From positions 9,734,001 to 9,798,000 of the forward strand of contig JBHGNT010000010.1 in NCBI GenBank assembly GCA_043228905.1: a DNA stretch of 64,000 nucleotides, read 5' to 3'. This document shows, in pieces, positions 1,042 through 61,411 of this stretch. The number at the start of each line of letters is the position of its first letter. Positions within the stretch are counted from its first letter, which is position 1. The notes below the pieces were generated by a model. It saw only the letters and a program-made list of their open reading frames with translations. It searched no databases and had not been told where the DNA came from. Made by a program: the position numbers and the translations under genes. The stretch comes from Azolla caroliniana (taxonomy: Eukaryota; Plantae; Polypodiophyta).

Positions 1042-1879
1042 AGTAAGATGTCAAGGAAATCCTCGCGTGTTCGCGAAATAAAGCGGGACCACCGAGGTCC
1101 TCGACCAGAAGGATTTGATGTTTTTAACAGTGTAAGCGAGAAAGTATTGAAGATAGATAGATGGATGAAGAGAGAGAGAGAGATTGAGAAAGAGATTGAA
1201 CCTTTGACTTTAGTTTTACGAGACAAGATACATCACCATTAGGATAACTTAGAACTTTGATTAATAGTTTCTTTTTTACTTACATCACTTGCGTCCCTTA
1301 CACAAGCCCAACTATAGGCTTTTATAGGTTTCTCCATGCAAAAACCATGGGTTAAAACCACGAGTCGAAACCATGGTTTTGTGCCCACGTTTCTATATGT
1401 TTGCTTCCTACAAAATTTTGAATATGAAAAGAAAATATACAAATTATAAAGCACCAATAGTGGCTTTAGTGGTAAGTTAATTTGTCTCCTATCTTTGAGG
1501 TGCAAGGTTCAAGGCTTGCTTCCACCCCTATGTATACACTTAAATGTTACTAGGCTTTAGTCTCATTTTATTTACAAAGTTTGAGTGCACATTACACTTT
1601 CTCGATTTTGTTTGTTCCACACGATTTTCACACCGTTGCTGAAAATCTTCACGACAACGCTTTTGTATGCTAAACAATATTCATCTTCTACAACATGGGA
1701 ACCTGAAGGTGGTTGCCAGTTATTACTTTGTATGCTGAGTACAATTGTCCATGGAGGTAAACAAATGCCAATTGAGAAGAAAGGACAGTTGCATAGTTAC
1801 TTGGTATCGGAACAAAAACAATTATGGCTTCACGCCTTAGAAGAAAAAAGAAAGCATATTGAGGCCGCAAAGAAATATG

Positions 1880-2520
1880 CCGCACAAGAAGATACATCAT
1901 GGTGGGATGTCCTTTTTAGTGATAAAAAAGGAATTATAGACAATTGTGTATTTGGTGATAATTGGGATTTGGAAACGTCATTCACATGATCGCTACAACA
2001 TGATTGTGTAAATAAAACTCTAGAGCAACCAGCAAATACGATTAATGAGAGTTTGGTCCATTCACAACAAAGAGACATTTATGTGGGACCAAGCATGTGA
2101 AAAATCACGTACATATGTGTGTAAGTGTGTAGAAAGATTCTTCCCGAATTGTCGACAACATTTCAAGGGTCAGTGGACATGAGAGAATTGTGAGCAGAGG
2201 GATGTTGCAAGATTCAAAAGACTTTCTAATTTTTGGGCTATAATGCCGACAATACGTTGATTCTGGATACAGAACATTTCCGGCATTACTTCAACATTCA
2301 TAGATGCTGTCTCATTCTACCCGATTCTGGATACAGAACATTTCCGGCATTACTTCAACATTCATAGATGCTGTCTCATTCTACCCGATGTAATGCCTTA
2401 ACACTTCTTGGTGAAAACATTGAGCTACCAACTAATTGCATGGTTGTGGATTCCATACTGAGCTCGGTATGCAGATCATATATGTAGAGAAGTTCCACTG
2501 ACCAACAAGAGCTTAGCTGT
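1880..2520 (+). pseudogene. Highly degenerate FCP1/NIF phosphatase-like fragment (tentative)
   Basis: Fragments FMWDQACE and GYNADNTLILDT resemble the WDQ and Y..NTLL.DD motifs of NIF-domain proteins. Several stops. Confidence 0.3.
2259..2388. repeat. 64-bp perfect tandem duplication
   Basis: GATTCTGGATACAGAACATTTCCGGCATT...CTACCC occurs twice, at 2259 and 2323. Confidence 0.9.
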
Positions 2521-2989
2521 TTATATGGCAATGGGATGTTATAAATATGTAATTTGATGACAGATTAATCAATGAAGAATTAAATTGCTTGTTTTGAGTA
2601 ACTTATCTATTGTGTAATTTTAAGAGTATGTTCAGGATTGTTGATTTCATGATAGTGCTTTTTCTTAAAATTATGCAAACTATTTTTACTTGTACATGGT
2701 TCACTTGAGTAAATTTATATCTCAGAAAGAAGAACCCTAAATGATATTATTAAACTAGTTTTTTAAGAAAGAAGAACAGAAAAAAGACTATATATCAAAA
2801 AGACACGATTTTATTGAGAAAGAAGCACAAAAAGTAGACTGTATGTAGAAAAAAACTCCCAAACAGGTCCATTAAACTGTTTATTTGCAATACATGTGCT
2901 TTGCTTGTTTTACAAGAAAACTGATAATTGCTACTTGTAGCTACAAATTCCATGGCATACTGTTGTAAATACATTCATACACATGAGCA

Positions 2990-3554
2990 CTAACTGTGTA
3001 TAAACCTGAGCAGCTATTGTATTGCGACATTCGAACATTGACGCACATGACCAAATGAGAGTACAGGTACGCCACTAGTTTGCTTCTAATAGCCTATACA
3101 CATAATCGTAATCATCTAGTTTTGCATAAAAAATAACTTCGATGTAGAATGTCCCGGTAAATACAACATTTCCCCAAGAATCTAATATATTCTGCGTTGC
3201 ACACTGTTTACTAACCGTGCACTTCAATATATAGAAATCAACACCCTCCTAATTTCCTTCTTCTGCATTTACAACGAAATTATCCCCAACATTTAAGACA
3301 TCACTCAGAGTATCTCCACGTCCTTGATACGTGAAGTCAGCATTCTTTTCTGTTTCTCCATGAACTACTTCCTTATCGTTCAATGTATGATATTCCCAAT
3401 TCGGAATATATGCTTTATTTAAACAATACCTCCAATTTCTTTGCACACAATGGAAGCTAAAACAAGTTAATTCTCTAACCGCAATACAATGACATCCAAC
3501 CTAGAATAACCTCAAACAACATGGAGAGATCGAAATTCGAGAATTCCTTGGCAT
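2990..3554 (-). pseudogene. Sola2-like transposase, C-terminal part (left of chromovirus insertion)
   Basis: Reads through the empty site as W-E-C-Q-G-I-L-E-F-R-S-L-H, followed by a Cys-rich R.LTC...C....C.N segment. Confidence 0.6.
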
Positions 3555-4063
3555 TGTCATGATATGGCAAGACTCGAATCCATGACCTTAGGTTATATGG
3601 GTTGAGCTCTTGACCATTATATCATCTATTGTAATACGTGGATATTATTTTCATTTACATTTTATTATAGGAAATTAATGTATATTCCAGATTTCTCTGG
3701 AACATTCTAGAAGCTTCAGGATTACTCTTGAAAACACTATAAAAGAGGGCACTAGGCATTATGTTGAACAAAATTGGTTCAACGCCAGTCTTAAGCCTTT
3801 TAGCCACCATTGTATATTCTCTTCACATAATACATATCTTTCTTATCATCACTCTCTCCCTCTCTCTCCCTCTCTCTTTCTCTCCATCTCGCTCACTTCT
3901 TCCTTCTCTCAAGGAAGTTCTACACCTCTCAGAGTACTAATCCTTCGTTTAGTACTAATTCCTTCTCTGTCTTAGTACTATTCTTGATAGTTTGAACCAA
4001 TTTTTCCTACCTTTTGTCTCTCTCATTTCCTACTAATCTCTTATTCCTCTTTTCTTTCATCCC

Positions 4064-5212
4064 ATGGCCATTCTTAGCGCTGAAGAATATCAATCTGTTT
4101 TCTCGAAATTTCAATGCTTGAAAGAGAAGTTCCATGCTTTGGAACAAGAAAACCAATGGTTGCTGGGGGATCTTCAGCAAATCTCCTTAGAAAAGCAGCA
4201 AACGCAACAACATGGGGAACTTGCGTTACGCGTGCAACAACTCGAAGCAACCATCGTAGTAATGCAACAACAAGGGCCCGGAACACAAGGGACTCATAAA
4301 GAACCCAAGATTGGCCTTCCCACGAAGTTCGATGGAACGGGATCGTAGTTTAGAGGGTTCCTTAACCAAGTACGATTAGTTATTCAAATGCATCCTTCTC
4401 GATATCCCACCGATGCATCACGAGTGGGTTTAGTAGGCACTTTGTTAAGTGGCTCAGCGTTGGCATGGTTCACTCCACTATTAGAAAAGGAATCTCCATT
4501 ACTCAACAATTTTGAAGAGTTTCTAGGTGAGTTTAAAGCATGTTTCGGAGATACTGACAGCATCAGGACCGCAATCAACAAAATTCGGCGATTACGCCAA
4601 GGTGATCGTCCAGCCTCCGCATACGCTGCAGATTTTCACCTACTCGCCGCCGATATCCCTTGGGATGATCAAGCGTTGATGGAGCAATTCCGTTATGGTT
4701 TACGCAATGACGTCAAGGATTTAGTCTTGACCTTCCCCGAAGAGCCAAAGTCCTTAACAGAAGCAATCAGTCGTGCGGTGAGATGTGACAACCGCCTCTT
4801 TGAGTGACGTTCGGAACGACAGCTACAGATGCCGAGGGCAAGATCAAAGCCCACCTATGCCTCAGTGGTAGCAAGACCTTTTTAGAGGGAGTCATATAAT
4901 GCGCCTCCAGCGAATACTCCGACTCCGATGGAGATTGACACTACACGTCGTCGAGGGCCATTATCCGAAGAAGAAAAGCAGCGACGCCGTACAAATCGAC
5001 TATGTCTTTACTGCGGTGGACCAGGACATATTGCAATAAATTGCCCCCATAGGCCAAGAAGACAGGTAAACCAAATAGTCGCTAGTTCTAATTGTACTAA
5101 ACCCGAGCCTATTTCAGTAGGGATATCTGATAGTCCTAATAGTACTAATAGCCCAGATCTAGCGAACAAATTTGATGTCCTTAATCAGTTAGAAGAAGAG
5201 TTAAACGACTAA
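4064..5212 (+). pseudogene. gag: Chromovirus gag with zinc knuckle, in-frame stops
   Basis: Retrotrans_gag-like segment (SAYAADF...FRYGL) and [14 protein letters not shown] knuckle. Confidence 0.85.
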
Positions 5213-5223
5213 GTCCAACCAAA

Positions 5224-8200
5224 ATGGGAGCCGTTTGGTTGTACAGCCCTAGATCTGTGCAGCCCATTAGTGGTTCCATTCCCTCTAAGCAAGTTAGTGA
5301 TGTGTTCGTAGCCCAAGTAATAGTTAGTACTAAAAGTACCCGTCCAATACATGTCCTAGCACTCCTAGATTCCGAAGCTAACTCTTGCTTTATGGATAAG
5401 AAATTTGCTCAAGCTCATAAGATATCGCTAAGAAAACTCCAGTGTCCAGCCTCTGTAGTAGTCATTGATGGACGTCCCATTGCTTCCGGAAATATCATAG
5501 AAGAGTCGGAGCCCATTAATATTGTCCTAGATAACTTAGCATGTGTAGTATCATTTAATATTATTAGTATCCCAGGACATCCCATAGTTTTAGGATTACC
5601 GTGGTTCGAGTTACATAACCCAGACATAGATTGGAGAACAAGAGAAATCTGGTGTCAACAAACCCAAGGGTCAACTCAGAAGATGCCAACCATTTCGCTA
5701 CGTCAGTTGCATAAAGAAGGGTGCAAGGAGGAAATGTTCCTCTTTGCAATATTAGTAAACCCCTCCAGCACCACTAAAGAAGAATCCACCATTCAACTTC
5801 CCAAAAAGTATCGTCATTACCCCGATGTGTTCGATAAAGTACAAGCCAACACACGATTTCCCCATCGATTTACAACCGGGAAAAGAGCCGCCATGGGGAC
5901 CGATCTACGATTTGTCACCAACGGAGCTGGAAGTCCTTCGGGCCTATATAGAGGAGAATTTGGAAAATGGTTTCATTCGGCATTCGAAATCTCCAGCCGG
6001 CGCGCCCATTTTCTTCGTCAAGAAAAAGGATGGATTGCTTCGTCTTGTTGTAGATTACCGTGGCTTGAATAAGGTTACAATCAGGAATAGGTATGCTCTT
6101 CCCCTTATCTCAAATCTTTTAGAACGGATCAATGGTGCCAAGTTCTTCACGAAGATCGACTTACGGGGAGCATATAACCTCGTACGGATCCGACCAGGAG
6201 ATGAATGGAAGACCGCGTTTCGCACCAGATATGGGCACTTCGAGTATACAGTCATGTTGTTCGGCCTCACTAATGCGCCGACAGTCTTCCAACACATGGC
6301 TAATGATATATTCCGAGATCTATTGGATGATTGTTTGATCATCTATTTGGATGATCTACTGGTTTATTCAAAGACCTAAGAAGAACATGATTCTCATGTA
6401 CTATTAGTACTAAAACGACTTCGAGAATATGGTTTGTATGCAAAGCTGGAAAAATGTAGTTTCGGGTGCAACCAAGTGGAATTTCTCGGCTACATCATTT
6501 CGTCAAAAGGCATCTCCATGAACCCAGCTAAGGTCAAAATGGTGGTAGAATGGCAGACTCCGTGTTCGGTGCAGGATGTGCAATGCTTCCTAGGCTTTAC
6601 AAATTTTTACCAGAAGTTCATACAAGATTACTCAAAGATCGTTCTACCTCTCACACAACTTACCAGGAAGGGACAACCGTTCATCTGGTCTGAAGAAACG
6701 GACATGGCTTTCAAGAGTCTTAAAAAGGCATTTACATCGGCTCCAATTCTAGCTCATGTCGATCCGGAAAAACCATTCATTATCGAAGCCGACGCATCGG
6801 ATTTTGCATTGGGGAGCATTCTGTCACAACAGGGGAATGATGAGAAGCTACATCTTGTGGCTTTTCACTCACGCAAGTTTGACACCGCCGAAATCAACTA
6901 TGAAATTCATGATAAGGAGCTATTGGCAATAGTGGATTCTTTTATGCAATGGAGGCATTTTCTGGAGGGATCCTCTCATCCAGTCACCATATTTAGTGAC
7001 CACAAGAACCTTGCCTACTTTCAGGATGCTCGTGTGTTGAATCGACGTCAAGCTCAGTGGGCCCACTTCCTCACGCGTTTCGACTTCAAAATTACATATC
7101 GTCCGGGGAAGCACCAAGGGAAGGCCGATGCATTATCACGACGTTCGTATCTAGCACCCCGTCCCGGTGAGCCAGCTTTCGATAACCAAAAACAAGTCAT
7201 CTTGGGACCGGCACGACTACAAGCAACACAGATCTTTGACATGCCCATGGATTCCCGCGTTATCAATACCATACGTGAAGACTTGAAGACAGATGCGTTC
7301 GCCCAAGCTATACTAGCACAAATTGATCCCTCTTGGGCGTCGTGTTCACAGTCACAACCACCAGGTATGGACTATCGGCAATTAAAATACCATGATGGAT
7401 TACTCTTCTTTAAAGAACTTTTGTATGTTCCTAATGGTTCTTGCCGCCTTCGAGTAGTACAAAACTGTCATGACACATATACAGCTGGGCATTTTGGTAG
7501 TACTAAAACATTAGATTTAGTACAACGATCATTCTGGTGGCCCTGTATGCGATAATTTGTCGAGGATTTTGTTTGGACTTGTGATACATGCTGCAGAGCG
7601 AAAATGCCAAGGCATCATCCATATGGTTTATTAGAACCATTACCATTTCCAAGCAAGCCGTGGCAATCCATTGCTCTAGACTTCATCACAGATCTTTCAG
7701 TCTCTAAGGGGTTCAATGCGATTCTAACTGTGGTCGATCGATATACGAAGATGGCTCATTTCTTGCCATGTACTAAGGAGATCTCCAGTGAAGACACTGC
7801 CGAAATTGTCATGCGTGAAGTATGTCGGCATCATGGACTTCCCGATAGTATAATCAGTGACCGTGGACCCCAGTTCGTGTCAAAATTTTGGAAGCATCTT
7901 TTTAACATGCTCAAGGTCACTTGTAACCTCTCCTCCGGCTACCACCCACTAACTGACGGCCAAGCCGAACGAACAAATCAAACGCTCGAGCAGTATCTGT
8001 GGTGCTTTCTCAGTTATCATCAGGATGACTGGGCAGATATTCTCCACTTCGCTGAATTTGCCTATAACAACTCTATCCATGCATCCACTAAAGTTATGCC
8101 ATTTTATGCTTATACGGGATGTCACCCCCGTTGGAGTGTACTTGAAACCCCAGAGGTGTCCACAAATCCGTGCGCGCAGGATCGTTTGGAGCGGTTACGC

Positions 8201-8380
8201 AAGATACAAGCGGATTTATCTACTCATCTCCAGCAAGCTCAACAAACACACAAGGCCTACGCGGATTGTCATTGACTTCCATCCAATTTTAATATTGGAG
8301 ATCGGGTATGGCTACTACGACGACACATCAAGACTTATCGCCCATGTGAGAAGTTGGATTATCGGCGATTAGGTCCTTTC
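5224..8380 (+). pseudogene. pol: Chromovirus pol (protease, RT, RNase H, integrase), frameshifted or stopped, split by copia
   Basis: LLDSEAN (PR), VDYRGLN and YLDD (RT), DASD...KELLAIV (RH), SDRGPQF and DGQAERTNQ (INT). Confidence 0.9.
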
Positions 8381-11300
8381 TGTTGGGATTACGGTCCCTT
8401 CGAATGGGATGGTCGGATGTCGGAGATGAATGCCGACGAGCCCGGTTTCGGTTTCGGAACCGGATGATGAAGACCCCGGCTTCGGAGCCGGATGACGAAT
8501 GTACCCGGAGAGCGATCCGGATGCAGGGACATATCCGTGAATATGTTTGCTATGGGCCCCTGAGGCTATAGTTGTAAATAGCCCCAAAGTCATATATGTA
8601 TAAATATGACTTAGGGCAAACTGTTTTAGTGCTGCTGATCATTTTTTCTGTTTTTCCACTCAAGAGGAGTGAAGAGGGAGCAGCCGCGAGAGAGAGAGAG
8701 AGAGATAGAGCGTGAGAGAGGAAGAGGACGACGCCTCTGTGTATTTCCGCCGCCTGTGGCGAGGACAGCGAGCTCAAGGTCGTCGCCTTGCAGCTCGCCA
8801 TTGTATACTCCTCTTTGTATAGTGTTGGTTTGGAGTCTTGTACTCCCGTGGTTTTTCCCATCTAGGGTTTTCCACGTTAATCCCTGTGTATTCGTGTGTT
8901 TCTCTCTGTTGTTCCTATTTTCTGCTACATTGATTCGCGATTACTTGGTTGTGGCCGAGTGGTGAAGGTGAATCGAAGCGTCGATTCCCAACAAACTGGT
9001 ATCAGAGCGAGCTGCTGCAGAAAATGGAAGGCGGCGGCAGCGGGCAGCCGGGGATGATGGTGCTAAATGCGCAGAATTACGCCGACTGGAAGATCAAGAT
9101 GGAGGATCTTCTGATTGTTCGGGACCTGTACGAACCGATTGACAGGTCGGAAATACCGAAGGGGGTACTTGAGTCGGAATGGAGGCTTCTGAACCGGAAA
9201 GCCGTTGCAACCATTCGGCAATACGTCCACGTGAGCGTTCTACAACATGTGGCGAACGACACCAACGCATATGAGATGTGGCGGAAGCTGTCGGGCCTCT
9301 ATGAGAGGAAGAATGCGTTGAACCGGACCTCCCTGATGAGGAAGATAGTGAATCTCAAGTACCGGGACGGCGACAGTATGGTGGAACACGTAAGCACGTT
9401 CATGGGATTCGTGAATCAGCTTGCGGCGATCAAGTTCCCGTTGGAGGATGCAATGCAAGCCATCATCCTGATGTGTACATTGCCGGAAAGCTGGGAGAAC
9501 TTGGTGGTGACTCTCAGCACCTCCTGCACCGAAGATAACTTGTCCTTACAAACGGTAAAGACAAGTATTTTGAACGAAGAAGCGCGTCGGAGAGATAAAG
9601 AACCGGCCTCCGACTCGAAGGCGCTGCTTACCGAATCGGATCGGGGAAGACAATGGAACCGGAGTCCGCAAAGACGGGAGAAGTCGGGGACCCGGTCGCA
9701 GTCAAGAGGAAGGCCCACATGCTTCCACTGTGGGAAGCCGGGGCACTTCCGAAAGAATTGTCGGCATTACCGAAAAGACAACGGAGCCGACGACACCGAC
9801 TCGAAGAAGTCACCGGAGAGAAACGGTGCATACCGGGGAGCCACGGACCGGAGAGGTTCGGATCGGCGAGGGCAGGACCGGAAAGGAACAACGGCACTCG
9901 CGGCAAGTGAGGAAGAAATCATGCTCATCACCGAAGAAGGTGAACTAAACATTGCCGGCGATGAGACGACCTGGGTGGTCGATTCCGGAGCATCGTTCCA
10001 CCTGACCCCGGAGAGAAGATACTTCTCATCCTACACAGCCGGTGAGCATGGCTGTGTTCGGATGGGAAATGAAGGTACGTGCCGGATTGCCGGCATAGGA
10101 GACGTGTGGTTGACAACCCCGACCGGATGCAAAATGCTGCTGAAGGATGTCCGACACGTTCCGGAGGTTCGATTGAACCTGATTTCGGCCGGGAGGCTAG
10201 ACGATGAAGGCTACACAGGTAGCATCCGGAACGGCGTAATGAAGTTCAGCAAGGGGAGCCTGATAGTGGCTCGGGCCCGGAAAGACAACACACTGTACCT
10301 GATGAATGCCCGGTTATGTCCTGAAGAGCTGAATGTGGCAGCCGACACTGCCGGTGAGCTGTGGCACAAAAGACTGTGTCACATGAGTGAGAAGGGGATG
10401 AAGAGTCTTGCAGAAGACAACCTTATTCCAGTGAAGCATGTGCACCTGGAGAAGTGCACCGATTGCCTGGCCGGTAAGCAGAACCGAACCTCCTTCCACT
10501 CAAGGCCACCGACGAGACGTAGCGCACCATTGGAGTTGGTGCACACTGATGTGTGTCAGGTAGAAACGAAGTCACATGGCGGAGCCCAGTACTTCGTAAC
10601 ATTCATTGATGATCACAACCGGAAGCTGTGGACGGCACCGCTGAAGATGAAGGACCAAGTGTTGTGCGTCTTCAAAGAACTCCACGCGAGAGTGGAAAGG
10701 GAATCCGGCAAGAAGCTGAAAGCGATACGAGCGGATAACGGAGGGGAATACCGGGGGCAGTTCCAGGAGTACTGTCGCTCGAAGGGAATCCGGCTCGAGT
10801 TTACTGTGCCGAAGACGCCGGAACTAAACGGGCTGGCCGAGAGGATGAACCGGACCATAATGGAGCGGGTACGGAGTATGCTGGCGCATGCGAAATTACC
10901 CAAGGGGTTTTGGGCTGAGGCAATGTCGACGGCGACATACGTGATAAACAGATCACCCTCAGTACCTTTGGACGGAGACACGCCGCAGAAAGTGTGGACC
11001 GGTAAGGAAGTGTCCTACCGGCATCTGAAGGTGTTCGGGTGTCTCGCATACGTGCATGTGGCAAAGGACCGGAGAGGAAAGCTAGATCCAAAGACCCGGC
11101 CATGCATATTCCTCGGTTACGGCGACGACGAGTTCGGCTACCGAGTATGGGACCCGGTCGACAAGAAGATATTCAGGAGTCGAGACATCATCTTCATGGA
11201 GGACAAGACACTCGCCGACTGGGAATCGGAGAAGAAGATGAAGAGCTCCAAGTCGACCGGTGAGGATCAACTCTACGAGGAGCAGTCCCGACCGGCAAGG

Positions 11301-13720
11301 GACCGGTTAGCACTCGAGGATCCGGCCGAAGAAGATGAAGAAACAGAACCGGCCGAAGAAGATGAAAATGATACCGGAACCGGCCCCGATCCCGAAATGG
11401 ATTCGGATGAAGAAGAATCGGAAGAACCGGTTACCGAAGCTCCGGAACGAAGATATCCTCTAAGAGAGAGAAGGGCCCCCCGGAGATTTCCGGAACCAGA
11501 GCACGTGCTGCTAACCGACGAGGGGGAGCCGGAGAGCTTTGAAGAAGCAAAACATGACACCCAGAGCCGCAGGTGGTTGAGTGCCATGCAGGACGAGATG
11601 GATTCCCTGCATGAGAACCACACATATGAACTTGTGGAGTTGCCGAAAGGAAAGCGGGCACTTCGAAACAAGTGGGTGTTCAAGCTGAAACCGGGAGATG
11701 CCGGAAACCCCCCGAGATACAAAGCCAGGATCGTGGTGAAGGGGTTTCAGCAGAAGAAGGGCGTCGACTTCGACGAGATATTTGCCCCGGTAGTGAAGAT
11801 GACCTCCATCCGGACGGTGCTGAGCATAGCGGCAAGCATGGACCTCGAGGTAGAACAGATGGACGTGAAGACGGCATTCCTTCACGGTGACCTCGATGAA
11901 GAGATCTACATGCAGCAACCGGAAGGATTCGAGAAGAAAGGGAAGGAGCACCTGGTATGCCGGCTGAAGAAGAGCCTTTACGGACTGAAGCAGGCTCCCC
12001 GGCAATGGTACCGGAAGTTCGACTCCTTCATGACCGACGAAGGGTACCTCAAAACGCAGTCCGACCACTGCGTGTTTGTGAAGAAGTTCGAAGGAGGAGA
12101 CTTTCTAATACTCCTCCTGTACGTGGACGACATGCTGATCGTCGGACGGGACCAGGTCAAGATACGGATGCTGAAGAAGGCTCTTCACCGAACCTTCTCA
12201 ATGAAGGACCTGGGTCCGGCGAGGCAAATACTAGGGATGCACATCATCCGGGACCGGAAGAAGAAGCAGTTGTGGCTGTCACAGGAGAAGTACGTGACGA
12301 AGGTGCTTCACCGGTTCAACATGTCGGAAGCAAGACCGGTCGGATCGACCCTCCCGGCAAACTGCAAGCTGTCCAGCAAGCAAAGTCCCAAGACAAAGGC
12401 TGAAAAGGAGGAAATGATGAAAGTGCCGTATGCCTCAGCCGTCGGGAGCTTGATGTACGCCATGGTGTGTACGAGACCGGACATAGGATATGCAGTCGGA
12501 GTGGTGAGCCGGTACATGAGCAATCCCGGCAAAGAGCATTGGAACGCGGCCAAGTGGATACTCCGATACCTGAAAGGAACGGCAAACGTGTGCCTCCGAT
12601 TCGGCTCCGGTAAGCCCGAACTCGACGGCTTCACCGATTCGGATATGTCGGCTGATGCAGATACCAGCCGGTCCACATCAGGGTATGTGATGACGTATGC
12701 AGGGGGAGCCGTTTCGTGGCAGTCGAGGCTGCAGAAGACGGTTGCGTTGTCAACCACGGAGGCGGAGTATATGGCAGCTGCTGAAGCCGGCAAGGAAATA
12801 ATATGGATGAAGGACTTCATTAGAGAGCTCGGTATCCGGCAGGAGGAGTACCGACTCTACTGCGACAGTCAGAGTGCAATCCACCTTGCGAAGAACGCGG
12901 CCTATCACTTCCGGACGAAGCACATCCAGCGAAGATATCACTGGATCCGGGAAAGGATAGAAGACAGGGAGTTCGTGCTGACAAAGATCCACACGGACGA
13001 GAACGGGTCGGATATGCTGACCAAGGTGCTCACACCCGACAAGCTGGAAGCATGCCGGAAGAGGATCGGATTGGAAAGACATCCCATGCCGAAGTGAAGG
13101 GGGAGTTTGTTGGGATTACGGTCCCTTCGAATGGGATGGTCGGATGTCGGAGATGAATGCCGACGAGCCCGGTTTCGGTTTCGGAACCGGATGATGAAGA
13201 CCCCGGCTTCGGAGCCGGATGACGAATGTACCCGGAGAGCGATCCGGATGCAGGGACATATCCGTGAATATGTTTGCTATGGGCCCCTGAGGCTATAGTT
13301 GTAAATAGCCCCAAAGTCATATATGTATAAATATGACTTAGGGCAAACTGTTTTAGTGCTGCTGATCATTTTTTCTGTTTTTCCACTCAAGAGGAGTGAA
13401 GAGGGAGCAGCCGCGAGAGAGAGAGAGAGAGATAGAGCGTGAGAGAGGAAGAGGACGACGCCTCTGTGTATTTCCGCCGCCTGTGGCGAGGACAGCGAGC
13501 TCAAGGTCGTCGCCTTGCAGCTCGCCATTGTATACTCCTCTTTGTATAGTGTTGGTTTGGAGTCTTGTACTCCCGTGGTTTTTCCCATCTAGGGTTTTCC
13601 ACGTTAATCCCTGTGTATTCGTGTGTTTCTCTCTGTTGTTCCTATTTTCTGCTACATTGATTCGCGATTACTTGGTTGTGGCCGAGTGGTGAAGGTGAAT
13701 CGAAGCGTCGATTCCCAACA
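8381..13720 (+). mobile_element. Intact Ty1/copia element nested in the chromovirus integrase
   Basis: 613-bp LTRs 8381-8993 and 13108-13720 (TG...CA), no differences seen by eye. TSD CTTTC/CTTTC. tRNA-iMet PBS TGGTATCAGAGC 8997-9008. PPT GAAGGGGGAG before the 3' LTR. Confidence 0.97.
9024..13097 (+). CDS. Copia Gag-Pol polyprotein, uninterrupted (~1357 aa)
   Basis: Single ORF containing CFHCGKPGHFRKNC, DSGAS (PR), HKRLCH...C..C plus D,D,E integrase, YVDD (RT) and RNase H. Confidence 0.95.
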   Translation: MEGGGSGQPGMMVLNAQNYADWKIKMEDLLIVRDLYEPIDRSEIPKGVLESEWRLLNRKAVATIRQYVHVSVLQHVANDTNAYEMWRKLSGLYERKNALNRTSLMRKIVNLKYRDGDSMVEHVSTFMGFVNQLAAIKFPLEDAMQAIILMCTLPESWENLVVTLSTSCTEDNLSLQTVKTSILNEEARRRDKEPASDSKALLTESDRGRQWNRSPQRREKSGTRSQSRGRPTCFHCGKPGHFRKNCRHYRKDNGADDTDSKKSPERNGAYRGATDRRGSDRRGQDRKGTTALAASEEEIMLITEEGELNIAGDETTWVVDSGASFHLTPERRYFSSYTAGEHGCVRMGNEGTCRIAGIGDVWLTTPTGCKMLLKDVRHVPEVRLNLISAGRLDDEGYTGSIRNGVMKFSKGSLIVARARKDNTLYLMNARLCPEELNVAADTAGELWHKRLCHMSEKGMKSLAEDNLIPVKHVHLEKCTDCLAGKQNRTSFHSRPPTRRSAPLELVHTDVCQVETKSHGGAQYFVTFIDDHNRKLWTAPLKMKDQVLCVFKELHARVERESGKKLKAIRADNGGEYRGQFQEYCRSKGIRLEFTVPKTPELNGLAERMNRTIMERVRSMLAHAKLPKGFWAEAMSTATYVINRSPSVPLDGDTPQKVWTGKEVSYRHLKVFGCLAYVHVAKDRRGKLDPKTRPCIFLGYGDDEFGYRVWDPVDKKIFRSRDIIFMEDKTLADWESEKKMKSSKSTGEDQLYEEQSRPARDRLALEDPAEEDEETEPAEEDENDTGTGPDPEMDSDEEESEEPVTEAPERRYPLRERRAPRRFPEPEHVLLTDEGEPESFEEAKHDTQSRRWLSAMQDEMDSLHENHTYELVELPKGKRALRNKWVFKLKPGDAGNPPRYKARIVVKGFQQKKGVDFDEIFAPVVKMTSIRTVLSIAASMDLEVEQMDVKTAFLHGDLDEEIYMQQPEGFEKKGKEHLVCRLKKSLYGLKQAPRQWYRKFDSFMTDEGYLKTQSDHCVFVKKFEGGDFLILLLYVDDMLIVGRDQVKIRMLKKALHRTFSMKDLGPARQILGMHIIRDRKKKQLWLSQEKYVTKVLHRFNMSEARPVGSTLPANCKLSSKQSPKTKAEKEEMMKVPYASAVGSLMYAMVCTRPDIGYAVGVVSRYMSNPGKEHWNAAKWILRYLKGTANVCLRFGSGKPELDGFTDSDMSADADTSRSTSGYVMTYAGGAVSWQSRLQKTVALSTTEAEYMAAAEAGKEIIWMKDFIRELGIRQEEYRLYCDSQSAIHLAKNAAYHFRTKHIQRRYHWIRERIEDREFVLTKIHTDENGSDMLTKVLTPDKLEACRKRIGLERHPMPK

Positions 13721-13725
13721 CTTTC

Positions 13726-14470
13726 CATATTATCGGAAAGATTAATGATGTCGCTTTTCGTCTCAATCTACCTCCTCAACTTCGGATACATCCGGTGTTT
13801 CATAGTTCTCTCCTCGAACCCTATCATGAGAGCACCATCCCCGAACGTCTTATACAACCTCCACCCCCGATCGAGCTTGAAGATGGGCCGGAGTACGAGG
13901 TTGCCGCCATCCTTGATTCCAAGATTGTTCGCATCAAGCTCTACTATCTAATCGATTGGCTAGGCTATAGTCCTAGTGAACGTACTTGGGAACCGATCGA
14001 GAATGTGACCAATGCTCGTGCTCTTCTTGAAGACTTCCATCGTCAAAATCCACACAAACCGGGTCCTCAATCCAAGACGACTCGTGACACTCGTCGTTTT
14101 ATATCGGAAAGATTAATGATGTCGCTTTTCGTCTTGATCTACCTCCTCAACTTCGGATACATCCGGTGTTTCATAGTTCTCTCCTCGAACCCTATCATGA
14201 GAGCACCATCCCTGAATGTCTTATACAACCTCCACCCCTGATCGAGCTTGAAGATGGGCCGGAGTACGAGGTTGTGGCCATCCTTGATTCCAAGATTGTT
14301 CGCAACAAGCTCTACTATCTAGTCGATTGGCTAGGCTATAGTCCTAGCAAACGTACTTGGGAACCGATCGAGAATGTGACCAATGCTCGTGCTCTTCTTG
14401 AAGACTTCCATTGTCAATATCCACACAAACCGGGTCCTCAATCCAAGACGACTCATGACACTCGTCGTTT
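13726..14470 (+). repeat. Tandem duplication (~371 bp) of integrase C-terminus/chromodomain
   Basis: ORFs 13795 and 14166 encode near-identical EYEV.AILDS...YL.DWLGY....TWEP chromodomains. Confidence 0.9.
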
Positions 14471-14901
14471 TAAAGGGGGGATAGTGTCATGATATGGCAA
14501 GACTCGAACCCATGACCTTAGGTTATATGGGTCGAGCTCTTGACCATTATATCATCTATTGTAATACGTAGGATATTATTTTCATTTACATTTATTATAG
14601 GAAATTAATGTATATTCCAGATTACTCTGGAACATTCTAGAAGCTTCAGGATTACTCCTGAAAACACTATAAATGAGGGCACTAGGCATTATGTTGAACC
14701 AAATTGGTTCAACGCCAGTCTTAAGCCTTTTAGCCACCATTGTATATTCTCTTCACATAATACATATCTTTCTTATCATCACTCTCTCCCTCTCTCGATC
14801 TCTCTCTTTCTCTCCGTCTCGCTCACTTCTTCCTTCTCTCAAGGAAGTTCTACACCTCTCATAGTACTAATTCCTTCTCTGTCTTAGTAATGTTCCTGTC
14901 A

Positions 14902-16131: not shown

Positions 16132-16149
16132 CTACGTAATAAAATGGAC

Positions 16150-32000: not shown

Positions 32001-32740
32001 GGCGATTTTAATTATGTATAGATTATTAGAAGCTTGTGAATCCCACAAGTAGAGTTGTTTTAGTTTGTCTTAATCATAGTAATAAATTGAAATAGTTTAG
32101 AGTAGAAATAGAAAAGAGATCAAACCTTGTGAATCCCACAAGTATTACATTAATCAATATTTATGAAAGAATATGAATTTAGATTGAAAGAGATAGATTA
32201 TATAAAACTTCGTGAATCCCACGATTATATTAATTGGTGTTGTGGGAAATATATCCAATTTCCCAAATATTTTTCTCCCCCACCTATTACATTGTGCTCC
32301 CCATCCTTATGTAGTGATGAGGGAGTCTTAGGAATCCATGCTTTTTTTCCTCTAACTATAGACTCCATGCTTTTCCTATAGATAGACTATATGCTTTATC
32401 TAAAGTGATTATGCTTTTTCTAACTTGTGCGTTTTTTATCAACTATAGCGTTCATGCATGCTAGATGTGCATGCGTAGCTTTTTCTTTTAGCATGCGTTT
32501 TTCTTTTAACTAAAGTTTTATCCTATGTGAACTTACCTTTTTTATGTGGAACATCTACTTTTTAACACGAATGAAATGCTAGTGTAATGGTAAGACATTA
32601 TATTATTAACATGGAGGTGCAAGGTTTGAATCTTGCCCTATGCATGTTATATGTATTTTAATATTTTCTACTATTTATTCATATTTATTAAATCGGTACT
32701 TTATAAGTTTTTCACGTAGTGTACGAAATACACTACGACA
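29048..32740 (-). mobile_element. Non-autonomous Trp-primed element C nested antisense in B
   Basis: LTRs 31918-32740 and 29048-29879. Perfect 4-bp TSD ACGG/ACGG. PBS 31896-31913. PPT next to 29880. Confidence 0.93.
30362..31879 (-). CDS. gag: Gag-like ORF with acidic low-complexity C-terminal half (~505 aa)
   Basis: N-terminal ~200 aa resemble the 61412/61772 gag (FDGKDVSRYL, FNRV.TDELQ). No knuckle or protease. Ends in 23-24-bp tandem repeats at about 30380-30560. Confidence 0.7.
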   Translation of the reverse strand: MENQQEAMNMMMMMIKRMQEEQHTMSEMKSTVARLVQRNGEFDGKDVSRYLCEYKAEMMRCGIPEGLQVTSFNRVVTDELQERIHKIGQQNPTWESFEEALREAYDFKRSKGQDRREFDEWVVSEKTYRSATQVFLEFEHRFARLSKREQRLVGEDKVLMFVKSIDQKERMDIGIDLEDDDGANGLTKDWAEVQRVCRRHDERKMRILSTTWPMKDGRLKTNDRADMKAEIQHDGATEKGVKQATLLSCKRTTAKDKADNPSVEEDFGVQVSETSGEKGVSIIDAVKESKEDLIEEVATKDDIESKVAMDESMVDGHIETSPPLIPKTPVVAFEKQREIEETEDGGEKTKAEADAYDGEIVEKVAMVEMTEDDNTEGSCALILETSVVVSENQRETGETGGGSKEVKVGSRFGWKMIRPKFRCKQNHDNAKVGSTKGEVCNTEHAIWRKKKHMLWHKKKHALWRKKKHALRCKRSMHYGVIQRMHYDGIRSMRYGVIRRMRNNEK

Positions 32741-44490: not shown

Positions 44491-44491
44491 T

Positions 44492-48500: not shown

Positions 48501-50620
48501 GCTAACTTTTTTACATGAACTCGATACGGCGTATCGAGTTCATGTTTAAAGTTTTATTTTAGATTTTTTTATTTAAATAATTACATTTTTTCCTATTTTA
48601 TTATGGTGTTTTGTTTTTTTTCTAAAATAAAATTAAGCTTTAATAAGTGATAAAAATAATAATTTATGTATTATAGTGCATGGTCTAATGGTCAAGAGCT
48701 CCACCCATGTAGCAGAAGGTCATCGGTTCGAGTCCTACCATATCATGACATATAAAAAAGTTACCTATTTTACAAGAACTCGATACTAACTTTTATACAT
48801 GAACCCGATACGGCGTATCGAGTTCATGTTGAAAAGCTAACTTTTTTACATGAACCTGACACGGTGTATCGAGTTCATGTTTAAAGTTTTATTTCGGATT
48901 TTTTTTTTAAAATAATTACATTTTTTCCTATTTTATTATGGTGTTTTGTTTTTTTTCTTAAAAAAAATTGAGCTTTAAGAAGTGATAAAAATAATATTTT
49001 ATGTATTACAATGTATGGTTTAATTGTCAAGAGCTTGACCCATGTAACATAAGGTCATGGGTTCGAGTCCTACCATATCATGACATGAAAAGTTTAATTT
49101 TAGATTTTTTTTTTTAAAATAATTACATTTTTTTCTATTTTATTTTGGTACTTTGTTTTTTTTTCTAAAACAAAATTGAGCTTGAATAAGTGATGAAAAA
49201 ACCAAAGCTTTTATCACAAGTTGATACAATGTATCAAATTGATGTTTAAAAAATAAAACAAAATCAATAAAAAACTATAAAAAATTGAAAAAAATTGAAA
49301 CAAAATTGAAAACAATTAGAAAAAATTACTTTAAGCATGAACTCAATACATTATATCGAATTGTGATGAAAATTATAAATTTTCTAGATGAACTCAAGCA
49401 CAATTGATTATTATTATTATTTTTTAAATCTAGTAAAAAAAACTTTGAGCAATAATTCAATACCTTGTATGGAATTATGATGAAAACTCTATTTTTTACA
49501 TCAACTCGATATAACATATCGACTTAATGTTTAAAATCTTGTTGTTTTTCAGATAAAAGAGGTTTTTTAAACATGAACTTGAATCGTACTAAAATCTTTG
49601 TTTTTACAAGAGAAAAAGATGCATATCGATAGTGCAAACAAGTATGTTGTACAATAAGATACTTTATGGTAAACATGTGCATCATTGATTAACAAAAAAC
49701 TATTAATAATTGTGTTGATGGTAATTGAACCTTGCAAATGCCATTTACACGGTCCATAAAGTGTTCGTGTGGTTCTCAATCACTACTTAATGTTGATCTT
49801 TATAGTTGGAACAAATGATGACAACACAAGCATAACTCAGGTGACAAGGAAACTTGCAAGAAGTCAAGGTGAGTATATTAATAGCTACACATGTAGATGG
49901 CCATGACCTAGGGTACCAATTTTGCATTGGTAAAGTTTTGGACGTGATGATGCATAAAACCTTTGTAATACATCTATCATTGACATTAATGAGGTGGATA
50001 TCATTATGTATGACTTTACACAAATAAAAGTTGGATGTATAAGGACAACAACGATATGCATAATAAAAGAGATATTAGCAAGTCTAGAAGATATCTCAGA
50101 TTGAAGACGAAGAAGATTTATTGCACAAAATTTGGAGATACCATTTGGTGAAGACAATGATTTGATTGGTACATTAGAAGATGAGGAGGAAGAGTCACAA
50201 TTGTATATTATCTATAGTAGTGATTATCATGAAAAGAATGATGATAGTCATGCAAATAACTCCCAAATGTATTTGTTGTGCAACTATATGTAACAAATTT
50301 AGACAACATTTTATCGAATGGAATAAAAACGTTCATTGTTTTGAAATATTCTACTTTGATTTCTTTAAGATCTAAAAACTTATTAGTTGTCATTTTTCTT
50401 TAAAAATCCACAAAGTTACTTTTCATATTTTACCCAAATTTGGCATTTTTCAATTTTACCAAATGGTGAAATTTTCAACTTTTTCATCAAGTTTTGGAGA
50501 ACATGTGATACTAGTATCAAGATGTTTTGTGAAATAGCAAAAAAAACCCCAAAATCAAACAGAATATTCCTTATCCTTCCACTTGTGCGCGATCCTTCCA
50601 CTTGTGAACGCAAACGTGTT
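45590..50620. mobile_element. Non-coding foldback-like TIR DNA element inserted in the copia E 5' LTR
   Basis: TIR AACACCTTTGCATTCACAAGTGGAAGGAT versus ATCCTTCCACTTGTGAACGCAAACGTGTT. TACT(A) duplicated relative to the intact 3' LTR. Inner inverted arms about 46205-46750 and 49190-49750. Confidence 0.88.
46905..49090 (+). repeat. Tandem array, 7 units of ~332 bp, each with ACATGAACTCGATAC palindromes and an LTR-derived tRNA-like cassette
   Basis: Equivalent positions at about 47518, 47850, 48183, 48515 and 48849. Palindrome AACATGAACTCGATACG-C-CGTATCGAGTTCATGTT. Confidence 0.92.
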
Positions 50621-51031
50621 TACTAGGGAGTTATTACTCTCGTAGTTAGTGTCAGACGCTCGAGTGAGCATTGAAGTACACCATACTTTTGTTAGTCCGT
50701 ATGGACCTGTATAAAAGTGTTCGTTGAACACATACGATGTACAGAGTGTTGATATAATTTTGAATAGAGATTCTTGTTCTACTCTCTCTGTCTCTCCCAT
50801 GTACTGTTATGCTCTCCATTAAACCTGTTCTCTGTTTTCTGTTTTTTATTGCTTCCACACGCTATTTGTTTTTACATGGTATCAGAGTGCGAGGGTTGAG
50901 AACCTCTGCAGCCAACATTCGCTTTCGCAAGAAGAAAACCTAACCTTTGTAAAGAACAAGGAAAAAAAAACAATGGATAGAGGAATGACTAGCTCGCTTC
51001 TGGTGGAGAAGCTCGACAGATCCAACTACGA

Positions 51032-52163
51032 TGTCATGAAGATTTCCGGCAATGGTGTGAAAATCACATAAGATGTACAAAATCAAGTGTCAATCATATA
51101 AAACAATAATAGTGAATATACTAATTCTAAGTAAGTTTAATATCTTAGTACAAAAGACGAAGATCTTGAAGAGATGCACTTTACTACATAAGAAACGGAC
51201 ATTTAAGTGTCAACTTATGTGGGTAAGAAGTTGCGAAAGAAAAAGAGAAAATTGTGAGGTATCCCACATAGACAGGAAAAATAAGGCTCTCACCATATAT
51301 AAGGTGGAGCAAAAGTTATCATCTTTGTGTCTATGTGTGGAGCATAGAGAGTTCAAGGTAACTTGAACTAAGAGTGGAGGTGGCCTAGCCACTCGTAAAG
51401 GTTTTGGCCAACCAAAACGGAACTGGACAGTAACCGGGAATCGGCATCCGACGGAGCCGGTGATCAGGCGGTATCGGCATCTGACAGAACCGGTGATCCG
51501 GCGGCGGCGGCAACCGGCGACATCCGGCAAACCGGTGTCATCCGACAACCGACGACGACGGGCATTCGGCAACCAGATAGATATATAAATAAATAAATAA
51601 ATAGATACACAAGGAGGGCAAGTGCATATTCAAACCTTGCACCTCCTAATTAAGAGTCAGTAAGCTTACCACTAAGCCATGACATTTAGTTGAATTTATA
51701 TTTCTATCATTGTACTTTTACATATAAATTCTCATACATGAGAGCTAAAATGAGTGACATGGTTATCATGCACCACATGTAATACATGAGCGCCAAATGG
51801 CAAACATGCATTTTATGCATGTCTTGAACCCTCAAATGCATGGGGGCATCTATAAAAGAGGGAATGAAAAAGATCAAAGGGGGATTCTTGGGAAAAAAGA
51901 AAGCTTTGTAAATCAAAATTAATATTAAGAAGAAAATTCGTTATCCTTTTGATGATATACCTTGTTCTTGAAATCTAAAGTCAAGAGTTCTTAATCTCTC
52001 TCTCAATCTAAAATCAAGCGTTCTATTTTTTCTCAATCTCTCTCTCTTTCAATCTATCTTAATTCCTTTCTCGCTAAAGCTTGTGCCAACGTCGAATCCT
52101 TCCGGTCTAGAACTCCGGCGGTTCGGCCTCACGATCCGTGCGTAATGACGGATCTTCACGACA
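51032..52163 (+). mobile_element. Solo LTR (~1.13 kb) of the Trp-primed lineage in copia E gag
   Basis: TGTCATGAAGAT...ATCTTCACGACA terminal inverted ends. TSD ACGA/ACGC. Removing it restores DRSNYASW. Confidence 0.88.
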
Positions 52164-59801: not shown

Positions 59802-59943
59802 ATAGATCGGTATCCGGAACCTAGAGCCAGATCAAAGAACCAGTTCATACTCCGGAATAGTGAGAACCAGTAGGCAATTGGAGCCTATGGTCCTAGCCTA
59901 GTACATAGGCATATGTCTTGGAGTCAATGTCAGTGTCAGTACT

Positions 59944-60271
59944 TGTTGAGCGGCAAGCTCAACCGGAGCCGGATCGGCTGAATAAGCCGGAGCCGGTAAG
60001 CGAGACGGAACGGGCGAAACGGATCGGTATGACGGTGAGCAACCAAACCGGCAAGCCGTGGAGGCCGGGTGCAATCCATAACCGGCAGTCCAATCGGAAG
60101 CCTAGAATAGGATAGACTACTAGGTAGTTATAGTCTCGTAGTAAGTGTCAGATGCTCGTGTGAGCATTGAAGTACATGGTACTTCTGTCAGTCCCAAGAG
60201 GACTTGTATAAATAGTGCTACTTAGCACAGTGTGTGTACAGAGTCTTGATATAATTTTGAAATTACGTTCT

Positions 60272-60310
<39 letters not shown>

Positions 60311-60613
60311 GTTGTTCTCTGTTTTACGCTTCTGCAAACACTCACGTTTACATGGTATCAGAGCGCGAGGGTTGAGAACCTCTGCTGCAGACATTTAACT
60401 CTTGAGAAGAAAACCCTAACAGGTCGAAAACAGACACAGTAGAAGACATGGATAGAGGAATGGCTATGTCGCTCCCGGTGGAGAAGCTCGACAGGAGCAA
60501 CTACGCATCCTGGTCTTACAAGATGCACCAGTACCTGCTTGGACACGGGTACTGGAGTTATGTCGAAGGAGCGAATGATGCGGCGCCAGACTCGGCACAC
60601 AAGGACTTCCCGG
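59944..60613 (+). mobile_element. Second copia E-family copy: 5' LTR 59944-60352, PBS and gag start, interrupted by element D
   Basis: TGTTGAGCGGCAAGCTCAA start. TGGTATCAGAGC at 60353. Gag EKLDRSNYASW. Confidence 0.88.
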
Positions 60614-61411
60614 TGTCGTAGTGTATTCCACACACTACGTGAAAAAGTAAAAATAATATAACCGATTTAATTACATATAAATAAATAAAATAAGAATATC
60701 AAGATATTTATCACCAATCAATAAAATAAGAATATCAAGATATTTATCACGTGCATAGGGCAAGATTTGAACCTTGTACCTCCACGTAGCCAAATCTCAA
60801 CTTTACCATTATACTACCTTATCTTTAGTGTTCTACAAATAGATTTAATAACTATAAGTCCTTTATTTGCGCCTACCTTTATTAAAAGGTAAATCATGCA
60901 TTTTTAGAGTGCGTGAATATTTTATAGAAAAACGCAAGCAACTAAAAAGTGACTCATGCACATCTAGCGTGCATGAGCACTATATTTAGCAAATAAAAGC
61001 AAGGATTAGAAAAGCATCACATGCACATTTAGTGTGCATGAACATATTAGAAAAAAGCATGTAGCTATGCTTAGTCTCTCCCATCACTATATAAGGATGG
61101 GGAGCACATTGTAGTTTTTGTTGATTATTTTTCTATAATGATCAATCAATCTAAAATATTCGTGGGATTCACGAATTTGCTAAAATAATTCTCTCTTACT
61201 ACCTAAATATTGACTAAATATACTAAACTCGTGGGATTCACGAGATTCTTATCTTATAACTCTTTATACCTATTCTTTACTAGCCTTATTTGTATTTTTC
61301 TTTCCTCCTAGTCCAAAACCTCGGCGGTTCCCACCCGACTCACGCAACGATCCGGAGCCGAAAGGCACGACACAGTTGGTGAACCCGACGTGAAGACCGG
61401 GTGGCAAGGAG

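What the first reader, a model, noticed from the sequence alone, without database searches (positions are those of the whole stretch)
1461..60820. Antisense tRNA-like Pol III cassettes built into the LTRs of two different gypsy lineages
Seen: A-box plus B-box pairs at tRNA-like spacing, always on the strand opposite the element and pointing toward the LTR 5' end. Trp-primed lineage: 1461-1515 (+; TGGCTTTAGTGG...GGTTCAAGGC), 29719-29771 and 32580-32632 (+; TAGTGTAATGG...GGTTTGAATC), about 33560-33625 (-), about 51612-51685 (-; TGGCTTAGTGG...GGTTTGAATA), about 60752-60820 (-; TAGTATAATGG...GGTTCAAATC). The motif GGAGGT(G/A)CAAGGTT is kept while the surrounding LTR sequence is strongly diverged. 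Chromovirus LTRs: 3555-3630 and 14485-14560 (-; TATAATGGTCAAGAG...GGGTTCGAGTC), ending at the LTR terminus. Known: Cassandra TRIMs carry 5S-derived Pol III promoters, and small-RNA-derived LTRs are reported for some non-autonomous groups. Inference: here coding elements of two lineages may use a TFIIIC/Pol III module as an insulator or anti-silencing barrier, or as a source of antisense small RNA. No full cloverleaf is evident.
Basis: partly seen in the sequence, partly recalled or inferred. Interest (0 to 1): 0.85.

Follow-up and report, generated by a model that had tools for sequence, protein, structure and literature searches.

The report
tRNA promoters inside moss retrotransposon LTRs
Two unrelated lineages of gypsy jumping genes, likely from a moss, carry a backward-facing remnant of a tRNA gene, with its two internal promoter boxes, in their terminal repeats; it likely serves as a binding site for the RNA polymerase III machinery that shields the element's own promoter, but no function has been shown and most related families sampled lack it.

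Summary
All eight sites hold an A-box/B-box pair 32-33 nt apart, on the strand opposite the element and inside U3. Strict pairs number 9 against 0.24 by chance. The Trp-primed elements are Phygy; the chromovirus is a self-priming Tcn1 type. The module is tRNA-derived but has no cloverleaf, and it cannot drive the element's own RNA. That separates it from Cassandra and Helenus. It is patchy: 3 of 11 Phygy LTR groups sampled carry it, and it is the only internal U3 block those three share. Close relatives carry better boxes than the window copies, whose B-box changes are mostly CpG decay. Within groups the boxes are only slightly more conserved than their flanks, and no terminator or RNA fold is shared. 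Best reading (0.45): a captured tRNA/SINE head kept as a TFIIIC/TFIIIB site that bounds the LTR promoter. Neutral hitch-hiking (0.3) is not excluded. The scan earlier noted an antisense tRNA-like capture inside a fungal Gypsy (e1-7123521), not in its LTR.

The parts
1462..1515 (+). A/B-box cassette (degenerate, 3 mismatches) in U3 of Phygy LTR A (LTR 1048-1656, minus strand; tRNA-Trp PBS at 1027-1043)
3571..3624 (-). A/B-box cassette at the 5' edge of the 5' LTR (3555-3989) of the Tcn1-type chromovirus
3555..14901 (+). Tcn1-type chromovirus: gag, RT, RNase H, integrase, chromodomain, broken by stops and frameshifts; copia nested at 8381-13720; self-priming site 3990-4004 complementary to 3770-3783; TATA at 3738; 5-bp TSD GGCAT/GGCAC; LTR divergence K=0.037
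14501..14554 (-). A/B-box cassette in the chromovirus 3' LTR (14485-14901), just after the PPT; predicted to fold as one long hairpin
16211..16910 (+). Phygy-type LTR without a cassette (internal negative control)
29719..29771 (+). Cassette in the 3' LTR (29048-29879) of Phygy derivative B (minus strand, ACGG TSD, gag fragment only, LTR divergence K=0.029)
32580..32632 (+). Cassette in the 5' LTR (31917-32740) of element B
33572..33624 (-). Decayed cassette in LTR C (33463-34310), 3' LTR of the derivative into which B inserted
46209..49748 (.). Element bounded by about 550-bp inverted repeats; holds the remains of a chromovirus LTR on the minus strand (3' part at 46769-46902)
46915..49089 (+). 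Tandem array (period 281 then 332 bp) with seven copies of the chromovirus LTR's first 100 bp, cassette included; A boxes at 47071, 47351, 47683, 48016, 48348, 48681, 49016
51627..51679 (-). Cassette in solo Phygy LTR S (51032-52163, plus strand, TSD ACGA/ACGC, inserted in a copia gag)
60764..60816 (-). Cassette with zero-mismatch boxes in the 5' LTR (about 60614-61375) of Phygy element D (tRNA-Trp PBS, gag-protease frame 61676-63454, pol-like sequence running off the window)

Best explanation
The cassette is a 54-bp tRNA-derived A-box/B-box module fixed antisense in U3 of some Phygy families and one Tcn1-type family, and it is likely retained as a DNA binding site for TFIIIC/TFIIIB that would bound the LTR's Pol II promoter. 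Shown: tRNA origin, antisense orientation, fixed 32-33 nt spacing, position about 110-375 bp upstream of the TATA-like motif, and presence in three Phygy LTR groups whose U3 otherwise does not align. Inferred step 1: a tRNA gene or tRNA-SINE head entered a U3 once or twice, was copied to both LTRs by reverse transcription, and moved between co-resident families by LTR recombination. Inferred step 2: in active master copies TFIIIC binds the boxes and loads TFIIIB on the side facing the Pol II promoter. Inferred step 3: this complex would keep the promoter region open and block read-through from flanks or divergent antisense Pol II transcription, as yeast tDNAs and ETC sites do. Any RNA made would be a by-product.
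For: 9 strict pairs against 0.24 expected. Gap is 32 in 9 of 10 Phygy LTRs and 33 in the tenth; gap openings number 6 in 578 cassette columns against 100 in 2704 flank columns over 11 non-independent pairs (summed). Between the three LTR groups the cassette is the only internal U3 block that aligns; identity is 0.79 for the GGAGG block, 0.68 for the B box and 0.55 for the A box, against 0.49 in the spacer and 0.39-0.40 in flanks. L043 against D: 24/31 in boxes and GGAGG block, 6/22 in the spacer, p=0.0006. Relatives have better boxes: L043 has 0+0 mismatches and L056 0+1. In two DNA runs about 65% of contig depth at 60768 reads the letter that restores the B-box CpG. In four DNA runs 65-99.9% of depth at 14552 reads the letter that fits the A-box consensus, the common changes lie in the spacer and a free A-box position, and none of the 40 rows shown falls in the B box (21 rows hidden). 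A DNA-level role fits the missing terminator: first TTTT lies 11-50 nt after the B box in 7 of 10 Phygy LTRs, 117-209 nt in 3, and is absent from the chromovirus LTR. Barrier, insulator and roadblock effects of Pol III complexes are described in yeast (PMC4228148, passages).
Against: Only 3 of 11 Phygy LTR groups carry it; the gag sisters of A and L056 (L023, L054, L072, L075) lack it, so it is dispensable. Within groups the boxes are hardly more conserved than flanks: A 0.82, GGAGG block 0.83, B 0.79, spacer 0.74, flanks 0.78 and 0.72. The box-versus-spacer contrast is not significant for L043 against B (p=0.12) or C (p=0.26). All three A-group copies have 3-4 box mismatches. Only 1 of 10 Phygy copies keeps the B-box CpG; 4 read TG and 5 read CA, which suggests the site is methylated in most inserted copies, not protected. 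The best-kept block (GGAGGTRCAA) lies outside the canonical B box, and TFIIIC does not need fixed A-B spacing (recalled). No binding, chromatin or small-RNA data were available. Plant barrier activity of such boxes was not found in my searches.
Confidence: 0.45

Rival explanations
1. Neutral passenger. A tRNA or SINE head inserted antisense into a U3, where it does no harm, and was carried along and occasionally swapped between families. The boxes look conserved because the source was conserved and the transfers are fairly recent.
For: Absent from 8 of 11 LTR groups. Within-group conservation is near flank level. S-group LTRs look mosaic: their 5' U3 aligns with cassette-free L054, L072, L075 and L083, and a 108-bp block with the cassette aligns with B. 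The seven array copies show that the module can multiply as a passenger (boxes 0.95 and 0.92, spacer 0.91, upstream 0.95). CpG decay in 9 of 10 B boxes.
Against: Inside the shared block the spacer has diverged more than the boxes, indels are depleted, and close relatives of S, D and the chromovirus keep consensus boxes with the mutable CpG. No free-standing SINE copy turned up in the window or in 216 kb of loci, although that sample is biased to PBS-adjacent DNA.
Confidence: 0.3
2. Antisense small-RNA gene. Pol III makes a 75-120 nt hairpin RNA from U3 that is diced or acts as a decoy, tuning the element's copy number or silencing, in the manner of foamy-virus U3 Pol III microRNA cassettes.
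For: The chromovirus cassette is predicted to fold as one long hairpin (-29.3 kcal/mol, z -5.0); S, B and L043 fold as two hairpins (z -3.6 to -3.9). TTTT lies within 50 nt of the B box in 7 of 10 Phygy LTRs. Precedent: PMC3993851 (passages).
Against: Folding is equally strong on the sense strand. Six of 10 Phygy copies have z above -2 as antisense RNA and L056 has -0.5. No consensus fold across 9 Phygy copies (-1.7 kcal/mol); 0 of 18 pairs show a double change in the chromovirus/array set. No terminator in the chromovirus LTR. In two polyA raw-read runs (12-13% of each read) all reads over the D cassette had the orientation expected of sense RNA, at depth 9-19, and none the opposite; they came from diverged copies, and polyA libraries would miss short Pol III RNA.
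Confidence: 0.15
3. The sequence is kept for its hairpin in the sense genomic RNA or cDNA (U3 next to the PPT), for reverse transcription, RNA stability or integration; the Pol III boxes are only a trace of its origin.
For: Hairpins are strand-symmetric. In the chromovirus the hairpin base includes the LTR terminus next to the PPT. A short RCAAG/CTTGY stem around the B box persists in several Phygy copies with loops of different length, and L080 keeps a stem although its B box is damaged (sequences).
Against: In the S group the cassette is about 600 bp from the LTR end. No covariation support. The A-box pattern and spacing are kept too.
Confidence: 0.1

Closest known systems
Helenus TRIMs and the TRIMp3 group (Cassandra, Ajax); Kojima 2024, PMC10886601 (parts 1-4 of 6 read, supplement searched)
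   Same: tRNA-derived sequence in both LTRs, conservation centred on boxes A and B, mostly no functional tRNA, origin proposed as SINE insertion into an LTR. The paper notes in passing that 'not a few' Repbase LTRs hold part of a tRNA.
   Different: Helenus are non-coding elements of 311-1263 bp with short LTRs, and the cassette is thought to transcribe the element; the Helenus LTRs seen in the supplement, Selaginella included, carry it in sense. Here it is antisense, in 420-1160 bp LTRs that keep a TATA-like motif, in gag- or gag-pol-bearing gypsy lineages. The paper studied only TRIMs under about 1 kb.
Foamy-virus U3 Pol III microRNA cassettes; Kincaid et al. 2014, PMC3993851 (passages)
   Same: A/B-box Pol III units inside U3 of an autonomous LTR element, with hairpin or dumbbell folds; dispensable in some settings.
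   Different: Those have terminators at the hairpin base and proven small RNAs. Here the terminator and fold are not conserved, no RNA is shown, and the unit is a recognisable tRNA remnant in plant gypsy elements.
Yeast tDNA and extra-TFIIIC (ETC) boundary elements; PMC4228148 (passages)
   Same: Boxes without a useful RNA product that could act as barrier, insulator or roadblock to bidirectional Pol II transcription next to a divergent promoter.
   Different: Those are host loci with measured occupancy. Here the site travels inside a retrotransposon and occupancy is untested.
Phygy and Tcn1 clades of plant Ty3/gypsy; Neumann et al. 2019, PMC6317226 (passages, one supplement row)
   Same: Host elements match: 4-bp NCGN TSD and tRNA-Trp PBS for Phygy; chromodomain, self-priming and fungal relatives for Tcn1.
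   Different: The passages I saw describe no tRNA-like module in these LTRs.

Membership tests
Helenus / TRIMp3 | tRNA-like sequence with boxes A and B in both LTRs | tested here: met
   Both LTRs of B and of the chromovirus carry it.
Helenus / TRIMp3 | Short non-coding element (311-1263 bp) | tested here: not met
   Chromovirus has gag, RT, RH, INT, chromodomain; D has a 592-aa gag-protease frame and pol-like sequence; B is 3.7 kb with a gag fragment.
Helenus / TRIMp3 | Pol III promoter placed to transcribe the element (sense) | tested here: not met
   All LTR copies in the window and 5 of 5 in loci are antisense.
tRNA gene | Cloverleaf passing ARAGORN or Rfam RF00005 | tested here: not met
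   0 genes; best copy 13.1 bits against gathering score 29; L043 no tRNA hit; real tRNA-like genes in L060 and L038 scored 59.4, 35.5 and 29.3 bits.
tRNA-derived SINE | Free-standing copies with tail and own TSD | tested here: inconclusive
   None in the window or 216 kb of loci; sample biased and no genome held.
Type-2 Pol III promoter | A box and B box at tRNA-like spacing | tested here: met
   Zero mismatches in D, L043 and two array copies; gap 32-33.
Type-2 Pol III promoter | TFIIIC binding and Pol III transcription | not testable with these tools
   Only polyA raw reads were on offer.
Foamy-type U3 Pol III small-RNA cassette | Conserved hairpin with a T-run terminator at its base | tested here: not met
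   Terminator position varies 11-209 nt or is absent; no consensus fold or covariation.
Phygy | 4-bp NCGN target duplication | tested here: met
   B: ACGG/ACGG; S: ACGA/ACGC; definition.
Phygy | tRNA-Trp PBS | tested here: met
Phygy | Placement in the Phygy clade by RT-RH-INT phylogeny | not tested
   RT of D lies outside the window; named gag relatives are from Physcomitrium, Riccia and Adiantum.
Tcn1 chromovirus | Chromodomain and self-priming without tRNA PBS | tested here: met
   PF00385 E 4.5e-14; the 15 nt after the 5' LTR are complementary to 3770-3783 over 14 nt.
Tcn1 chromovirus | Grouping with fungal Tf1/Sushi elements in a tree | tested here: inconclusive
   No tree built; named RT-RH relatives are mostly fungal, plus one fern.

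The most novel reading that the evidence does not exclude
Protein-coding plant gypsy elements of two distant lineages independently domesticated tRNA genes as backward-facing Pol III modules in U3, and trade them between families, to insulate their Pol II promoter from the silenced, nested repeat clusters in which they sit: a transposon-borne tDNA barrier, and the first case in plants of TFIIIC-based anti-silencing.
Probability: 0.25. Interest if true: 0.8.

Novelty: new variant of a known kind. Interest (0 to 1): 0.5.

Why it matters
Small-RNA-derived promoters in plant LTRs are described for miniature non-coding elements, where they transcribe the element. An antisense copy in coding elements cannot do that, so if it is selected it must do something else. 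It would offer a direct test of whether TFIIIC sites act as chromatin boundaries in plants, with natural controls: sister LTR families with and without the module. It may also show how TRIMp3 elements arise from autonomous LTRs. If neutral, it is still a source of false tRNA-like calls in bryophyte genomes.

Tried and rejected
No whole genome is held, so no genome-wide LTR test. Viral contigs gave 0 PBS matches and 3 weak, unrelated chromodomain matches. The GGAGG-B-box 20-mer has 0 matches in prokaryote genomes. No RNA holder was listed for the D region; this is no evidence on expression. Summed contig depth peaks over both B boxes, but contig depth cannot rank parts of a stretch, so I do not count it. 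ARAGORN below -ps90 is noise (49 window calls at -ps80). Rfam miRNA hits in the window are palindromic repeats, far below gathering scores. Box-like pairs in L081 (antisense), L059, L021 and window 1246-1193 (sense) are not homologous to the cassette or not kept in relatives, so I treat them as chance. The pairs in L060 and L038 are tRNA-like genes upstream of the LTR, not in it. G-U strand asymmetry as a sign of an antisense RNA fold was not supported. Independent origin of the two lineages' cassettes is not settled: spacers are unrelated, but the 16-20 nt after the B box are alike between the chromovirus and B or C (1 and 0 of 500 shuffles reach the score), not S or A. Ten literature searches found no description of this arrangement in Phygy or Tcn1; subscription papers and Repbase entries were not searchable, and PMC11963269, PMC12786077, PMC3286476 and PMC5371812 (passages) added nothing on it.


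Full report
Setting. The window is a nested cluster of copia and gypsy LTR retrotransposons. The named relatives of the Trp-primed elements' gag are from Physcomitrium, Riccia and Adiantum, so the host is likely a moss. These elements have 4-bp NCGN target duplications (ACGG/ACGG for B, ACGA/ACGC for S), which with a tRNA-Trp PBS marks the Phygy clade (PMC6317226, passages and supplement row). The chromovirus at 3555-14901 has gag, RT, RNase H, integrase and a chromodomain, mostly fungal named relatives and a self-priming site complementary to the LTR just after its TATA box: Tcn1 type. Neither assignment was tested by an RT tree.

The observation. All eight sites are present. Strict A/B pairs number 9 against 0.24 in 25 shuffles. 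The new ones belong to seven copies in a tandem array at 46915-49089 (period 281 then 332 bp) inside an element with long inverted repeats (46209-49748). Each unit holds the first 100 bp of a chromovirus LTR, ending at the LTR terminus, and the LTR's 3' part lies at 46769-46902. I read this as repeated duplication of the junction between a solo LTR and its flank (inference). Array boxes are no better kept than the rest of the unit, so these are passengers. Copia LTRs and the Phygy-type LTR at 16211-16910 have no cassette.

tRNA origin. No copy is a tRNA gene. The best array copy aligns along the whole Rfam tRNA model at 13.1 bits (E 3.2, gathering 29) and is one of two window calls by ARAGORN at -ps90. 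Patterns drawn from the cassettes' 3' halves fall inside called tRNAs in 33 of 35 and 44 of 54 viral loci; the best alignments are to an Ile(TAT) tRNA for the array and to Met(CAT) tRNAs for L043. That sample was chosen by the patterns themselves, so the isotypes are only hints.

Distribution. Forty-eight had an LTR-like end and at least 450 bp upstream. For 25 I could place the LTR start or hold nearly all of the LTR; the rest were left out of the count. With six window LTRs these 31 form 11 groups by DNA similarity; the cassette is in 10 LTRs of 3 groups: A/L005/L080, S/L043/L056 and B/C/D/L015. All 5 locus copies are antisense, 380-640 bp upstream of the PBS; L015 is weak (E 0.006) and the other four strong. 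On a gag tree (short N-terminal stretches, FastTree, seven weak rows dropped) the carriers fall in two separate clades, and the sisters of A and L056 (L023, L054, L072, L075) lack it. Between the three groups the cassette is the only internal U3 block that aligns, while the S group's 5' U3 aligns with cassette-free families. This points to transfer of a module between families, or to repeated loss.

Constraint. For: between groups the GGAGG block (0.79) and B box (0.68) exceed the spacer (0.49) and flanks (0.39-0.40), with the A box at 0.55; L043 against D gives p=0.0006 for boxes versus spacer; spacing is 32 in 9 of 10 and indels are about four times rarer than in flanks (summed, pairs not independent). 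Relatives hold better boxes than the window copies: L043 is perfect; about 65% of contig depth in runs X1 and X4 restores the B-box CpG of D, and 19-24% shows the other CpG decay product (40 of 100 rows shown); in four runs under four organism labels the chromovirus A box mostly fits the consensus and the frequent changes lie in the spacer (40 of 61 rows shown). These shares are contig-depth ratios, not copy counts. Against: within groups boxes reach 0.79-0.83 against 0.72-0.78 in flanks; L043 against B and C is not significant (p=0.12, 0.26); A-group boxes carry 3-4 mismatches; 9 of 10 Phygy copies lost the B-box CpG, which suggests methylation in most inserted copies. Selection is thus suggested, not established.

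RNA or DNA role. The first TTTT lies 11-50 nt past the B box in 7 of 10 Phygy LTRs and 117-209 nt in three; the chromovirus LTR has none. The chromovirus cassette is predicted to form a long hairpin (z -5.0 antisense, -5.1 sense); S, B and L043 form two hairpins (z -3.6 to -3.9), the others little. There is no common fold and no covariation. PolyA raw reads over the D cassette were all of the orientation expected for sense RNA, 9-19 deep, from diverged copies; such libraries would miss short Pol III RNA. A defined RNA product is therefore less likely than a DNA-level role. The module points away from a TATA-like motif about 110-375 bp downstream, so TFIIIB would load between the boxes and the Pol II promoter. 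In yeast, Pol III complexes in that arrangement act as barriers, insulators and blocks to bidirectional Pol II transcription (PMC4228148, passages). For an element in nested, silenced clusters this would be useful, at the 5' LTR against read-through and spreading, at the 3' LTR against antisense transcription into the body. Every step of that is inference.

Comparison. Helenus, Ajax and Cassandra are short non-coding elements whose small-RNA promoter is thought or shown to transcribe the element (PMC10886601, parts 1-4 of 6 read); the Helenus LTRs I saw in the supplement carry it in sense. The present case fails membership on size, coding content and orientation. The same paper remarks that many Repbase LTRs hold part of a tRNA and studies only the TRIMs, so tRNA pieces in other LTRs are not unknown. 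Foamy viruses carry Pol III microRNA cassettes in U3 (PMC3993851, passages), the nearest functional precedent in an autonomous element. Ten searches found no account of antisense tRNA-derived modules in Phygy or Tcn1 LTRs; Repbase and subscription papers were out of reach, and the sequence files of PMC6317226 were not among the supplements held.

Verdict. A real, previously undescribed as far as I could search, but patchy feature: new variant of a known kind. DNA-level TFIIIC/TFIIIB boundary 0.45, neutral passenger 0.3, antisense small RNA 0.15, sense-strand structure 0.1.

Noticed in passing
window 46209-49748: AT-rich element with about 550-bp inverted repeats, no TSD evident, whose interior is a 332-bp array joining a palindromic subterminal motif to the first 100 bp of a chromovirus LTR. 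Whether it is a repeated family is unknown.
   Followed up: partly
L060 1151-1223: tRNA-Arg(CCG)-like gene (Rfam 59.4 bits) about 200 bp upstream of a cassette-free Phygy LTR, pointing away from it: the same geometry as the cassette. One case; may hint at how a flanking tRNA could be captured.
   Followed up: partly
L038 2244-2315, 2614-2685, 2983-3042: Tandem array, about 370-bp period, of tRNA-Met(CAT)-like sequences upstream of a Phygy element.
   Followed up: partly
window 16913-19100: About 2.2 kb of degenerate self-complementary short repeats (TAGCTAAT type) directly after the Phygy-type LTR at 16211-16910; folds back extensively and gives spurious miRNA hits.
   Followed up: no
window 8381-13720: Copia element nested in the chromovirus integrase region with identical 613-bp LTRs and one unbroken 1387-aa frame: a very recent insertion.
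   Followed up: partly
window 13731-14472: 371-bp tandem duplication (96% identical) covering the chromovirus SH3/chromodomain region just before the PPT.
   Followed up: no
window 38915-38955: Short stretch resembling an anticodon loop plus B box with no A box; possibly a tRNA fragment.
   Followed up: no
window 51400-51570 and L054, L056 LTRs: GC-rich short tandem repeats inside U3 of S-group and L054 LTRs, upstream of the cassette where present.
   Followed up: no
L020, L021, L039, L053, L060, L064 LTR ends: A sense B-box-like GGTTCRAGRCC about 63 bp before the PBS in several cassette-free Phygy families, without a good A box; probably a conserved U5 motif.
   Followed up: partly
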